NCBI GenBank assembly: GCA_964016885.1
Contig: OZ024752.1
Coordinates: 16,616,001 to 16,680,000 of the forward strand
Length of the DNA stretch: 64,000 nucleotides
From: Eledone cirrhosa
Lineage: Eukaryota
Direction of reading: 5' to 3'
Part shown: piece after piece, positions 27,558 through 39,835 of the stretch
Layout: every line of letters starts with the position of its first letter
How positions within the stretch are numbered: the stretch's first letter is position 1
Position numbers and translations under genes: made by a program
The notes under the pieces: generated by a model
Told to the model about the DNA's origin: nothing
What the model saw: the letters and a program-made list of their open reading frames with translations, nothing else
The model's database searches: none

Positions 27558-27817
27558 CTTCCTATTACCCACTCTACTACCCAAAGTATTGAGTACTCTG
27601 GTGCGTTATGGTCCACCTGGTTCTTACCACACTTCCTTTGTTATATATATATATATATATATATATATATATATATGTATATATGTAGAGGTTATATTTA
27701 ATTTGTTGGGATACAACAAGCAAAATATTTTTATAACTGATATAAAGCACTCAACAAATTATTGGAGTAAATATACAATATATTAACAAATGGAAACTAT
27801 ATTTATAAAACCATATT

Positions 27818-27883
27818 TATTTCATTATACATATTTCAAGGGCGACCAAGGCAAACTATGGTGCGCTTTCATCAGATAAAATA
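27818..27883 (-). ncRNA. Type I hammerhead ribozyme (PLE pLTR type)
   Basis: Minus strand: TATTTTAT-CTGATGA-[AAGCGCACCA..TGGTCGCCCTT]-GAAA-TATGTA-TA^-ATGAAATA. Full core present, stem I is 8 bp with one G-U pair. Confidence 0.85.
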
Positions 27884-28654
27884 TAATATAGGTTAGTTTT
27901 ATAAATAAATATTGACACACCCTTAAAAAATGCAACTATTCTGGTTGGAATCTCCTGGATAGTGGAGTTATTAGATTTATTGTTGGTTTATTATGCAAAT
28001 TAGTGTCGGAAAGGTTTAAATAACAGTATATTTAAATTAAGCTGTTGGAATAGAGAAAAAAGAAAGAAAGAGAAAAAAACATGAGAATATTTAAGTGAGA
28101 GAGAATAGCGTAATTTTGAGAAAAGAGGCGAAGAAATAAATATAGGGTGGATGAATACCGTAACATGGATAAACAATAATAAAGATAAGTTTAAGAATTT
28201 TATCTAATGTTTAATTAATAAATTTGGTTAAATGCTTAATTAATAATTTATCAATTCAATCCGTAGTTTAAATGTTTAAATGTGTATGTTAGATTATTAA
28301 AGAGTTGAGACCTATATATTATTAAAGAATATATATTATTAAAATATATAATTAGAAAATATGTTATTATTACAAAACCATATATAATTTTATTAATTAT
28401 TAATTAATTATTTAAAAAAATTAATTATTAAAAAAAAATTGTAAGTTTAAAATATCCGAATATTTCTAAGCTCATAGAATTTCCGAGAGTTTACAGAAGA
28501 ATAATCCCTTATTTGTAATAGCAGTAGAGCGTAAAGGAAATTGCTAGCGATTTATTAATAATTTAGATAGCTCTAAGGATTAAATGCTATAAAGTTAAGA
28601 TGTTAAAAAATTAAATTTTCCATCATAATAATAATGTAATTATATATATATAGA

Positions 28655-29078
28655 AGTGGTTACACAACAGTTAGTTCACCATACCGAGAACAATTGTTTC
28701 ACCTTAGCCTCGTCCCATGAACTGAGTGCTCTACCACTACGGATATTACCTTCCAGTGTTCTACCACTATATATATATATATATATACACATACATACAT
28801 ACATATATATATATATATATATATATATATATATATATATATATATATATATATATATATATATATATAAGGAGTTGACGGACCCACCATATTTATCAAT
28901 GCCAGGACCGGTTGTATCTCAGCGTACTCAATGGGCAATGTAAGATACATTCCCAGAGTATACACATAGTTATTCGCTTCAATACAACACACGTAAAACG
29001 GGTCCCTATAATAGTTCTCGGATTCGAGTTTCGGCCGCACTAATGCAGCAGTAAGGTGCACTGCACCATCCGTCTGCA
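28655..29078 (-). mobile_element. Two short GC-richer element fragments (28655-28768 and 28870-29078) between (TA)n tracts, possibly tRNA-derived SINE-like
   Basis: The minus strand has A-box-like TAGTGGTAGAGCAC and B-box-like ACTCGAATCC, plus several small hairpins. The family is not recognised. Confidence 0.3.
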
Positions 29079-29157
29079 TATATTATGACCCCCCCCACCA
29101 CACACACATATATATATATCAAAATGGCGAGCTATGTTGTTGCAATTAAGTATTTTT

Positions 29158-29716
29158 AAAAAATACAAGTTAAGGGCGAGAGAGAGGACTATCCGTCATC
29201 AGTTGTCTACTAGGAATCATAGGTATTTTTTCGCGTTAGAGACAATATACCTCAGCCTAGGGCGAGTCAATAACTAAAATAAGTTATTGGGATAAAATAA
29301 CGGGGGGGGGGGGGGTTCTCGCTTCCTCGCCCTTTCACTCACTCCTCTCTGCTAGTCATCCTCTCTCTGCGCTAGCTCACTTCCTCCATCGTCTGTACGC
29401 GGTCTCTTTTCTCGCTATCACTGCTACTGTCTAGGCGTGTCTTTTGTCTCTCGTCAAAATTCGCCCGTTTTTATGTTCGAAATGAGTTATTAACTTCATA
29501 TTTTTCCTAATTTTCTTCTCTTTACGTTGCTTCACCATTCGTGTCTGTTTACATGTTTTTCTCTTCCCCTCCCTCCTTTTATCCCAATAACTTATTGTAG
29601 TTATTGACTCGCCCTAGGCTGAAGTATATTGTCCCTAACGCGAAGAAATATCTATGATTCCTAGTAGACAACTGATGACCGATAGTCCTCTCTTTCGCCC
29701 GTAACTTGTATTTTTA
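29158..29716. mobile_element. MITE/foldback element with ~140-bp terminal inverted repeats
   Basis: 29158-29298 (AAAATACAAGTTAAGGGCGAG...GTTATTGGGATAAAA) is the reverse complement, with few mismatches, of 29577-29716. The ~280-bp interior is non-coding. The TSD is not resolved. Confidence 0.85.
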
Positions 29717-29852
29717 TTATATATATATATATATATATATATATAAAATCGAGGTCTAGCAAATAGAGAAAAAGTTTCAAAATAAATTCTAAAAAACGGT
29801 TGGATAATACTTCTTTCCCTATATGTATTTTTTACACGTAGGAATTCATACT

Positions 29853-37394: not shown

Positions 37395-38388
37395 GGCATA
37401 GGTTAAGTTTAACGTTCGAGAAAATGAAAGTAGATTTTCTGACAAGTGAATGTGTTTTTTTTTTTTTTTTACAGTGAAAGTTACGATACACTGTTTGTTT
37501 ATTTACAACAGGTCTCTATAGTGATATGGTGTTAATTAGTATTGCGTGTGTGATTATTTTTTCTTTTTCTTTTTTTGTGTATTGTGTGTACGGAAAATGA
37601 CATTGTGTGTTGAAAGAAATAAATTTTTTAAAAATAACTACATAGTTAGACGTTTGTTGCATATAACATATAAATTGACGTACCTTATCAACATCCTTAT
37701 TAGACCATATAAATAGCTGAAATACAGTTGATCATCTCGCCAAACTTGTTGGCACCAACTCTCTGCCGCCAAAGAAATTCAGCTAAATATGAGGGGAATA
37801 AATCGTCGCTTGTCCCATGTTGTCGACGAAGCTTTTTCTTCGCACGGCTCCAAGTGTTCTCTATGAGTTGTGTGCGCACATTAGGGTCTTCAGGATCGAC
37901 AAAGTTCCGTTGGTGCACAACAACATCATGGAGGTAAATGCCACCTTGAATTTCTTCAATATCAGAATAGGAAGCCCAACCATCGGACATGATGTGGCTT
38001 CCTGGCAAAATCCATTCCTGTATGATGGGGACAAGAGTCTCACGGCTTCGATCTGGGACTTCGATGAGGCAGCAGCGTCCAGAATAAGGATGTTGATAAG
38101 GTACGTCAATTTATATGTTATATGCAACAAACGTCTAACTATGTAGTTATTTAAAAAAAATTTCTTTCTTTCAACACACAATGTCATTTTCCGTACACAG
38201 AATACACAAAAAAAGAAAAAGAAAAAATAATCACACACGCAATACTAATTAACACCATATCACTATAGAGACCTGCTGTAAATAAACAAACAGTGTATCG
38301 TAACTTTCATTGTAAAAAAAAAAACAAACACATTCACTTGTCAGAAAATCTACTTTCATTTTCTCGAACGTTAAACTTATCCTATGCC
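37395..38388 (-). mobile_element. Non-autonomous Merlin (IS1595/ISXO2-like) DNA transposon, ~305-bp TIRs, 8-bp TSD
   Basis: TIRs at 37395-37701 and 38083-38388 begin GGCATAGG. A perfect TSD TTTCTATG lies at 37387-37394 and 38389-38396. A transposase fragment lies inside. Confidence 0.92.
37700..38080 (-). pseudogene. C-terminal fragment of a Merlin/ISXO2-like DDE transposase
   Basis: GRCCLIEVPDRSRETLVPIIQEWILPGSHIMSDGWASY..HQRNFVDP..TQLIENTWSRAKKK..YLAEFLWR. The N-terminal part is missing. Confidence 0.92.
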
Positions 38389-38475
38389 TTTCTATGTATA
38401 AATTTAAGAACTTTTAAGACAACCAAATATATATATTGTGCATAGGCAACTTATACAGACCATGTGTAGTATTTT

Positions 38476-39040
38476 CTATAAATTGTAAATATTGTGAAAT
38501 GTTCTGGAGAATCGATGCAAACAAGAATTAAATATTTCCTTTTTTTTTGTTATCAGGATTGGTAATTATATGAAAGATTTCTTCAATACAGAGATGACAC
38601 ATTCTTGAGAGAACCATGTTTTGGTAAACTGCAGCATTCGATATCCTTCGCCAAGAGATTGAATAGTCAGTGTTACTGTCTTTTAAAGACCAAATTAATT
38701 GTGATAGTGAGGTTGAGAATATTTTGTCCGCTTGTTTGAAAGTATGTTTATGATTATACCATTGGTCCTTAAATTTTGTAGAAGTAGCTCCTATATAATA
38801 TATAATCTATCTCTAGTTTTTATGGTGCATTTGTATACTAAATTTCTATCAAGGCAATTATTCTGTAAAGGGCATAATATTTTATTTCTGCAATTACATT
38901 TTCTAATATTGTTATTAAGAGATACGGTATTATTATTTATGCATTCGCTATTATTATACGTAATGTTATTAGTTATATTGTTATTGCTATTTGAGTTTAT
39001 TTGGGTTGAGTTTAATTTTAAATTCCTATTATTAATTCTA
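38476..39040 (-). pseudogene. Naiad-type PLE GIY-YIG domain fragment (not in the supplied ORF track)
   Basis: Minus strand: an N-rich linker, then RKCNCRNKILCPLQNNCLDRNLVYKC..YYIGATSTKFKDQWYNHKHTFK..STSLSQLIWSLKD..CHLCIEE..CLH..*. Confidence 0.88.
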
Positions 39041-39444
39041 GTAACATTTAATACATTACTTTATAATTTTCACCAAAATATTATAAATACTTCCATATTC
39101 TTAAAATATATTATAAAATTAAATAAATAAATAAATATAATTATATCATTCTTTCTATACCCATGTAAATATGTTTGGATGTATATGTGCATATTTCTAT
39201 AAATAATCCTAAATTAACTTTACAATATTTTTTCAAATTTAATAGCAAACCCTTTTTAAAAAAATAATTTAGATAAATATTTAAAATCTATCTAGCGTCT
39301 AAACTTAACGGATCTTTTCAGTTTTAATGTTATTCTCATTAGCATATTTCCCCTGAGTTTTGAAAAGTTATATTCACTATCTTCACTGAACTTATAACAT
39401 GAAGTTCACATGAAGATATGTCACTATCTTAACACCAATTATTG

Positions 39445-39505
39445 TATTTTATCTGACGAAAGCGTACTAAAATATTAGTACCCTTGAAATACGTATAATA
39501 AAATA
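39445..39505 (+). ncRNA. Type I hammerhead ribozyme, intact
   Basis: TATTTTAT-CTGACGA-[AAG-C-GTACTAA-AATA-TTAGTAC-C-CTT]-GAAA-TACGTA-TA^-ATAAAATA. Perfect 8-bp stem I and palindromic stem III. Predicted cleavage is after 39497. Confidence 0.9.
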
Positions 39506-39835
39506 AATATGATTTTATAAAGATATTTTCCATTTATTAATATTATTGATATATATATATGTGTGTGTGTGTATACATATTTATATACAGTGTAGGGGAA
39601 AAGAAACGCCCTATTTACACACACACCACACACACACACCACACACACACACATATATGTGTATGCATGGCATGTGTGTGTGTGTGTAAATAGGTCGTTT
39701 CTTTTGTGAAAAAAAACTACCTGTTTACACACACACACATGCATACACATGTATATGTGTGTGTGTGGTGTGTGTACACTTTATTTCACGTTGCTCCTTC
39801 TACCTGGAGTTGCGACCGATAGATAGTATTAGCAA

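What the first reader, a model, noticed from the sequence alone, without database searches (positions are those of the whole stretch)
27780..39550. Two homologous, intact-looking hammerhead ribozymes with diverged but still paired stem II
27818-27883(-) and 39445-39505(+) share the stem I 5' strand (TATTTTAT), the full CUGANGA/GAAA/UA core, an AAG-C/C-CUU stem II base and ~45 nt of downstream homology (AATATG.TTTTATAAA.ATA.TTTCCATTT.TTAATA). Their distal stem II differs completely (GCACCA/TGGTCGC versus GTACTAA/TTAGTAC) while keeping pairing, which is evidence of selection on structure. The short, palindromic stem III (UACGUA; UAUGUA in the other copy) fits the dimer-cleaving hammerheads known in PLE pLTRs. 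The long AU-rich stem I and extended stem II with a conserved C-C mismatch go beyond the minimal form. These likely belong to a Naiad-associated ribozyme family in this genome (inference).
Basis: partly seen in the sequence, partly recalled or inferred. Interest (0 to 1): 0.75.

Follow-up and report, generated by a model that had tools for sequence, protein, structure and literature searches.

The report
Hammerheads of Hydra-type Penelope retrotransposons
The two motifs are real hammerhead-ribozyme sequences at the ends of broken copies of a known kind of jumping gene (Hydra-type Penelope elements, not Naiads) that left about 30,000 such motifs in this genome, and the way the copies end points to two likely copying start sites just behind the predicted cut.

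Summary
They are not Naiad ribozymes. They sit in the terminal repeats (pLTRs) of Penelope-like elements with RT, then a C-terminal GIY-YIG, and the Hydra-clade motifs RWR, DKT, CxCx5C and no CCHH. Hydra elements are published with canonical hammerheads, including an octopus family. A relaxed pattern finds 29,179 motifs in this genome; 28 of 119 scored RT hits lie in open frames of 738-816 aa. Across subfamilies only N7 of the core varies, stem II covaries around a kept C-C mismatch, and stem III stays self-complementary (TG 18,433, CG 525, CA 50). Both window copies are truncated, non-coding relics. New detail: insertions end about 48 or 139 nt past the predicted cut, each site 8-13 nt before a repeated hairpin, and 17 of 17 classifiable inverted pairs use one site each. 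No cleavage or RNA data exist. The scan noted Hydra hammerheads and the twin hairpins before, on other DNA of this genome. Verdict: new members of a known kind, moderate interest.

The parts
27818..27883 (-). Type-I hammerhead motif, copy A (commonest subfamily); predicted cut between 27826 and 27825
   Evidence: family counts
27685..28632 (-). 3'-terminal ~950 bp (distal 3' UTR, pLTR and ~90-nt tail) of an A-type Hydra element, 5'-truncated, no ORF; ends at site 2, 139 nt past the predicted cut
   Evidence: 84.6% over 926 bp to the 3' end of ORF-bearing L034; end positions
27749..27768 (-). Hairpin 1 (ACTC...GAGT followed by GCTTTA), 58 nt past the predicted cut and about 10 nt behind end site 1
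27642..27684 (.). (TA)n run at the 3' end of copy A; a shorter TA run (28641-28652) lies at its 5' end: target microsatellite
39445..39505 (+). Type-I hammerhead motif, copy B (older, rarer subfamily); predicted cut between 39497 and 39498
39046..39550 (+). 3'-terminal 505 bp of a B-type Hydra element, inverted against the 5' truncation point of its own body; ends at site 1, 52 nt past the predicted cut
   Evidence: 92-93% to L032 5173-5675 and L033 7769-8271
36971..39048 (-). Body of the same B-type insertion: frameshifted CxCx5C linker and GIY-YIG remnant (about 38500-39060) and proximal 3' UTR; its own 3' end is missing
   Evidence: 86-92% to L032/L033; ORF fragments
37395..38388 (.). IS1595/ISXO2-like DNA transposon remnant with 307-bp inverted repeats, inserted into the B-type 3' UTR
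   Evidence: PF12762 E=3e-18; inverted repeats
30717..32315 (+). A third, frameshifted Hydra-type RT-endonuclease fragment (YRDD, CNCPIRTNC linker, C-terminal CxxC and CxH); no hammerhead found behind it
34914..34993 (+).
41392..41471 (-). Inverted duplicate of the 34914-34993 motif, part of a 97-98% inverted duplication

Best explanation
The two motifs are type-I hammerhead sequences in the terminal repeats of two subfamilies of a Hydra-type Penelope-like retrotransposon, left here in truncated non-coding copies; in the source elements they likely cut the transcript at both repeats, probably as a weak dimer with help from the element's protein, and the released 3.8-4.2-kb unit is likely joined into a circle that the reverse transcriptase would copy from two start sites about 48 and 139 nt past the cut. 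Shown: identity, position (CUGA 235-243 nt before the ATG and 1.3-1.8 kb after the stop), conservation pattern, two end sites, the hairpin behind each, and one site per arm in inverted pairs. Inferred: cleavage, dimer, protein help, circle, and that two RT molecules bound at the twin hairpins prime from the two strands of a nicked (TA)n target, which would give the inverted 5' arm and the one-sided tail. Odds: Hydra pLTR hammerhead about 0.92; catalytically selected in source elements about 0.8; two-site priming about 0.7; circle as template about 0.5.
For: Parent elements: 20 of 20 long-ORF loci picked by protein search carry an intact-core motif nearby; sense 5' copy in 11 of 20, sense 3' copy in 17 of 20; unit length 3780-4234 nt in 9 of 9 with both. 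Hydra motifs: RWR 19/20, DKT 20/20, CxCx5C 19/20, only one Cys inside the GIY-YIG core 19/19 matched, C-terminal CxxC/CxH 18/20 versus PMC8557442 section 11. Core: among 36 intact of 43 flank-anchored copies N7 is T20/A6/C5/G5. Stem II: 72 of 80 Watson-Crick cells in 16 groups versus shuffle mean 46, 0 of 5000 shuffles. Stem III centre in the genome: TG 18,433, CG 525, CA 50; UGCGCA in another subfamily; a 2-nt loop cannot close in a monomer, and closing 2 bp costs 1.9-2.9 kcal/mol. Ends: 56 and 39 of 126 copies end at +38..56 and +128..152; hairpins at +56..63 and +147..153; 17 of 17 classifiable inverted pairs are discordant. Circle: 6 of 17 ORF-bearing 3' copies end at site 2, yet no 3' copy holds hairpin 2, which exists only in the 5' UTR; 5' repeats are 99-1517 nt long and differ from the 3' repeat at 47 of 6660 sites, mostly private. 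Precedent: dimer and circle model PMC4209133; two internal RT start sites and a protein-assisted hammerhead PMC11167929.
Against: No cleavage or RNA data here. Rfam has no hammerhead match. The commonest stem III variants give weak trans helices (-2.2 and -3.2 kcal/mol), and stem II closes with A-U or G-U, not the usual G-C. In the one PLE tested in vitro, hammerhead mutants did not change insertion, uncut RNA was the main template, and no RNA-seq ends were found at the cut (PMC11167929); that paper also saw no start-site difference between strands. Copies that begin at the cut site are rare, 74 against about 39,000 flanks, with 29 at a control junction. The 16 groups are related, and many copies were picked with patterns that fix stem I and the base of stem II, so pairing counts are inflated; the stem III shuffle test is weak (55 of 5000); the TG/CA asymmetry rests on few source lineages. 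12 of 29 inverted pairs could not be classified, and L032/L033 are probably duplicates of one insertion. The hairpins were found with a pattern that demands the stem, so they show only one covarying pair (A-U in hairpin 1, G-C in hairpin 2). No tree with named Hydra proteins was built.
Confidence: 0.6

Rival explanations
1. Same elements, but the template is an uncut linear read-through RNA. The hammerhead cuts only late or rarely, with protein help, to trim the mRNA 5' end about 186 nt before the ATG or to switch off templates by removing the start sites from the 3' repeat.
For: PMC11167929: mutants of the hammerhead do not alter insertion in vitro. All insertions run through the cut site. 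6 of 17 ORF-bearing copies end at site 2 and could supply both sites on a linear RNA. Weak stem III.
Against: No 3' repeat carries hairpin 2, although site 2 is used precisely. 5' repeats up to 1.5 kb with near identity to the 3' repeat would shorten each generation on a linear template (inference).
Confidence: 0.3
2. The fold is kept as a protein-binding or promoter-overlapping structure, or as a passenger, and does not cleave.
For: No Rfam match, weak folding z-scores, non-canonical first pair of stem II; low in vitro activity of metazoan PLE hammerheads (PMC4209133); Craig et al. suggest hammerheads may simply parasitise PLEs.
Against: All four bases occur at N7 while the rest of the core is fixed across subfamilies whose proteins differ by up to 30%; in laid contigs the variants above 10% fall in loops, bulges and flanks, none in core or stem I (13 rows).
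Confidence: 0.08
3. They are Naiad ribozymes.
For: Only the shared (TA)n target and the resemblance of Naiad and other PLE endonucleases.
Against: Endonuclease is C-terminal, DKT not DKA, no CCHH; Naiads lack canonical hammerheads.
Confidence: 0.02

Closest known systems
Hydra clade of C-terminal EN+ Penelope-like elements, e.g. Hydra-1_Obim of Octopus bimaculoides (Craig et al. 2021, PMC8557442; section 11, passages, supplement part 2 of 59 and search hits read)
   Same: RT then GIY-YIG, RW(K/R), DKT, CxCx5C linker, no CCHH, C-terminal CxxC/CxH, (TA)n target, type-I hammerhead in the pLTR, inverted 5' copy, tail at one end. By reading, the N-terminal RT motifs run parallel to those of Hydra-1_Obim.
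   Different: Different families: the hammerhead listed for Hydra-1_Obim has another sequence. Units are 3.8-4.2 kb with a 1.3-1.8-kb 3' UTR (published Hydras are generally under 3 kb). Stem I is 8 bp, stem II has a 3-bp base plus a C-C mismatch (in none of the listed Hydra motifs), stem III is a loop-less 8-nt palindrome, the tail is about 90 nt instead of 30-40, and copy number is in the tens of thousands with many open frames.
[quoted passage not shown]
   Same: Type I, long stem II, small palindromic stem III, thousands of solo copies, inverted pairs 100-700 bp apart, proposed dimer cleavage and circular template.
   Different: Longer stem I (8 bp versus 4-5), A-U or G-U instead of G10.1-C11.1, internal C-C mismatch.
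PAc Poseidon element of Anolis (Frangieh et al. 2024, PMC11167929; passages and second half of main text read)
   Same: Two internal RT start sites downstream of the hammerhead that define the tail; AT-rich target.
   Different: There the sites lie inside the ORF in one AC-rich stem-loop; here they lie in the 5' UTR, about 90 nt apart, each in front of its own repeated hairpin, and genomic inverted pairs use one site per arm.
Metazoan non-LTR retrozymes (PMC7229834, passages read; bioRxiv 10.64898/2026.07.22.740005, part 1 of 5 read)
   Same: Type-I hammerhead, dimer cleavage in weak-stem-III cases, circular RNA.
   Different: Retrozymes are 170-400-nt non-coding tandem repeats; these motifs belong to ORF-bearing elements and are dispersed.
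Naiad PLEs (PMC8557442)
   Same: (TA)n target, related GIY-YIG.
   Different: N-terminal endonuclease, DKA, CCHH, no canonical hammerhead: none of these applies.

Membership tests
Type-I hammerhead ribozyme | Core CUGANGA, GAAA, UH in type-I order | tested here: met
Type-I hammerhead ribozyme | Stems I and II pair and covary | tested here: met
   (72/80 cells, 0/5000 shuffles; selection bias noted); two compensatory changes between A and B
Type-I hammerhead ribozyme | Stem III closes (as monomer or in a dimer) | tested here: inconclusive
   Unfavourable as monomer; palindromic, trans helix -2.2 to -10.5 kcal/mol; CA centre avoided
Type-I hammerhead ribozyme | Self-cleavage after H17 | not testable with these tools
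   Needs an in vitro assay; no RNA run listed
Hydra clade PLE | Single ORF, RT then C-terminal GIY-YIG | tested here: met
   (20 ORFs of 732-793 aa from the first M)
Hydra clade PLE | RWK motif and DKT instead of DKG | tested here: met
   RWR (K to R) in 19/20, KSDKTNN in 20/20
Hydra clade PLE | CxCx5C linker, no CCHH, CxxC and CxH near the C terminus | tested here: met
   19/20; one Cys only in 19/19 matched; 18/20
Hydra clade PLE | Hammerhead in the pLTR and (TA)n target | tested here: met
   TA runs on both sides of copy A
Hydra clade PLE | Typical length under 3 kb (a description in the paper, not a diagnostic) | tested here: not met
   Units of 3780-4234 nt, from a long 3' UTR
Hydra clade PLE | Placement with named Hydra RTs in a tree | not testable with these tools
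   Named reference proteins were seen only as cut text in a supplement; database homologs at 31-47% identity carry no informative names
Naiad PLE | N-terminal GIY-YIG | tested here: not met
Naiad PLE | DKA motif and CCHH in the endonuclease | tested here: not met
Naiad PLE | Lack of a canonical hammerhead | tested here: not met
Non-LTR retrozyme | Short non-coding tandem units each with a hammerhead | tested here: not met
   A and B are dispersed ends of coding elements

The most novel reading that the evidence does not exclude
These elements expose the Penelope insertion mechanism in sequence: hammerhead cleavage makes a circular 4-kb RNA, two RT molecules dock on twin hairpins 90 nt apart, and each primes from one strand of the nicked TA target, so every insertion has one arm from each site. 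The hammerhead itself is a distinct variant with an 8-bp stem I and a conserved C-C mismatch in stem II.
Probability: 0.35. Interest if true: 0.68.

Novelty: new member of a known kind. Interest (0 to 1): 0.4.

Why it matters
Hammerheads in Hydra pLTRs are published, so the finding as stated is ordinary. What the hammerhead does in a PLE, and how the inverted arm and one-sided tail arise, are open questions. This genome offers about 30,000 motifs, many subfamilies and dozens of open reading frames, and a sharp rule (two end sites, a hairpin behind each, one site per arm) that turns those questions into direct assays. Five literature searches found no paper on these families, the C-C variant or the twin hairpins; the library lacks most subscription papers, and the supplement of the 2026 preprint was not seen.

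Tried and rejected
Rfam scan: no hammerhead family at E<=5. Pfam gave no useful family for the RT. Sequencing runs: no RNA holder listed, so nothing on expression; two runs of unrecorded kind were laid as contigs and cannot show RNA ends. Test for insertions starting at the cut site: 74 matches, about 16 of 20 inspected look like junctions, against 29 at a control junction of which 7 come from one tandem array; the cut-site junction has longer TA microhomology, so no enrichment is claimed. Test of circle versus linear template by shared 5'/3' repeat differences in 10 elements: only two recurrent contexts, both at CT/TA microsatellite edges; too few siblings to decide. My first linker pattern was mis-spaced and returned nothing; corrected. 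L1-style twin-priming inversion for copy B was considered because its two pieces do not overlap; rejected in favour of an inverted arm with later loss of the body's 3' end, since both arms carry the motif in related insertions (inference). The 45-bp satellite contains CTGATG but no hammerhead. No parent ORF was found for the third subfamily in 8 loci. A look-up of earlier findings by sequence returned nothing.
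Full report
Setting. The window is a 45-bp satellite (1-27347 and 45018-64000) around an AT-rich island of nested repeats. It lies at G000:C12:16616001-16680000 of a 3.0-Gb genome. An octopod host is my inference from the repeat content (recalled), a named Argonauta homolog and the published octopus Hydra family; I did not determine the species.

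Observation. Both motifs are at the stated places with stem I of 8 bp, full core, and predicted cuts at 27826/27825 and 39497/39498. My descriptor finds 4 motifs in the island and none in 300 shuffles; the other two are an inverted duplicate pair at 34914-34993 and 41392-41471. A and B are 81% alike over 123 nt. Their distal stem II arms are 4 of 6 identical with two compensatory changes, not wholly different. Rfam does not recognise them and folding z-scores are weak.

Family size. A tight pattern gives 3,222 matches, a relaxed one 29,179, and a 33-nt flank behind the motif 38,913; reversed controls give 0 each time. Of 30 copies picked by flank alone, 24 have an intact core and 6 have private deletions, truncations or point changes, as expected for decay after insertion.

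Parent element. A search with the RT N-terminal part gave 28,562 candidates, 119 scored, of which by my count 28 lie in stop-free frames of 738-816 aa. I fetched 20 of these. All 20 have an intact-core motif nearby: sense, 235-243 nt before the ATG in 11, sense, 1302-1834 nt after the stop in 17, and antisense upstream in 7. Nine have both sense copies, 3780-4234 nt apart. The proteins are 70-99% identical to each other and show RT, then a C-terminal GIY-YIG, with RWR, DKT, CxCx5C, no CCHH and C-terminal CxxC/CxH. These are the diagnostics of the Hydra clade, for which canonical hammerheads and an Octopus bimaculoides family are published (PMC8557442). Naiads have the endonuclease at the N terminus and lack canonical hammerheads. 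The Naiad reading is therefore rejected.

The two window copies. Copy A is the last 950 bp of an A-type element (84.6% over 926 bp to L034), set between TA runs, without ORF. Copy B is the last 505 bp of a B-type element, inverted against the 5'-truncated body at 39048-36971, which is interrupted by an IS1595-like remnant and lacks its own 3' end. The best B-type endonuclease hits lie in short frames, so B looks older. Neither copy has a sense partner for dimer formation in the window; they face away from each other on opposite strands. They are most likely inert relics (inference).

Signs of selection in source elements. In 36 intact of 43 flank-anchored copies from protein-selected loci, N7 is T20, A6, C5, G5 and the rest of the core is fixed. 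In 118 unique copies, 16 groups of two or more, stem II pairs 1-3, 5 and 6 switch among A-U, G-U, G-C and C-G; 72 of 80 cells are Watson-Crick against a shuffle mean of 46 (0 of 5000); position 4 is C-C in 14 groups and C-U in 2. The groups are related and many copies were picked by patterns that fix part of the stems, so this is support, not a probability. Stem III is UAUGUA, UAUAUA, UACGUA or UGCGCA; genome-wide the centre is TG in 18,433, CG in 525 and CA in 50 copies. This fits a trans helix between two motifs, but the helix is weak for the common variants (-2.2 and -3.2 kcal/mol, against -6.5 for copy B and -10.5 for UGCGCA). An extension of stem I beyond a bulge reaches 4-5 pairs in 53 of 95 copies and is not general.

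Insertion ends. Of 126 copies, 56 end 38-56 nt and 39 end 128-152 nt past the predicted cut, 5 elsewhere, 26 with no TA run in range. Copy A ends at the second site and copy B at the first. In 29 divergent inverted pairs, 17 could be classified and all 17 have one arm from each site (two are probably duplicates). A one-sided tail is known, and two internal RT start sites were shown in vitro for an Anolis element (PMC11167929); the strict one-site-per-arm pattern and the twin hairpins I did not find in print.

Mechanism. Every insertion runs through the cut site, so the template is either uncut or cut and re-joined. I favour the circle slightly: hairpin 2 exists only in the 5' UTR, yet 6 of 17 ORF-bearing copies end precisely at site 2; 5' repeats of 99-1517 nt match the 3' repeat with 47 differences in 6660 sites, nearly all private; and a circle gives the catalytic core a job, as proposed in PMC4209133. 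The rival, an uncut read-through RNA with a dispensable or regulatory cut, has direct in vitro support in another clade. Copies starting at the cut site are rare and not clearly enriched. No RNA run was listed, so cleavage, dimer and circle remain inferred.

Verdict. Observation confirmed; interpretation partly supported; new families of a known kind. The motif count is large but below the 126,247 reported for axolotl (PMC7229834). Interest 0.4, carried by the end-site rule and its testability, not by the two window copies.

Noticed in passing
window 34914-34993(+) and 41392-41471(-): A third hammerhead subfamily (1,388 candidates, 40 scored in the genome) with a 41-nt stem II and the same C-C mismatch; the window copies have an 8-nt stem III and another 3' flank than five relatives; parent ORF not found.
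   Followed up: partly
window 33596-36126 versus 39896-42964: Large inverted duplication in blocks of 90-98% identity around the B-type insertion.
   Followed up: no
G000:C12:16859108-16868886 (L102, L138, L139): The island, or at least 33304-43257, is duplicated about 210 kb away at 98.6-100% identity.
   Followed up: partly
L084 about 6860-7950 (oriented) and L100: Retrozyme-like tandem units of about 483 nt (L084) and two copies 686 nt apart (L100), each with a compact type-I hammerhead with a CUAG stem III.
   Followed up: no
L169 2960-3440 (G000:C23:about 483960-484440): Eight head-to-tail 60-nt units, each running from stem I 5' arm to the predicted cut site, inside one insertion; N7 alternates between G and T; inner units lack the stem I 3' arm. 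DNA slippage at TA microhomology or RT template jumps onto cut RNA ends.
   Followed up: partly
L157 and L165, around 1500: About 50-nt pieces from the predicted cut site to end site 1, repeated right behind a complete pLTR end and a TA run.
   Followed up: no
window 27447-27640: A 190-bp repeat with a long variable fold-back, often beside Hydra ends in TA runs; no hammerhead core.
   Followed up: partly
window 32580-33800(+) and 42753-44400(-): [quoted passage not shown]
   Followed up: no
window 37395-38388: IS1595/ISXO2-like transposase remnant with 307-bp inverted repeats.
   Followed up: partly
window 29159-29715: MITE-like element with 150-bp inverted repeats (92%); contains CTGATGA but fails the hammerhead descriptor.
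   Followed up: no
L111 and L130: The same 12-nt deletion, removing GAAA between short TGT repeats, in two different subfamilies.
   Followed up: no
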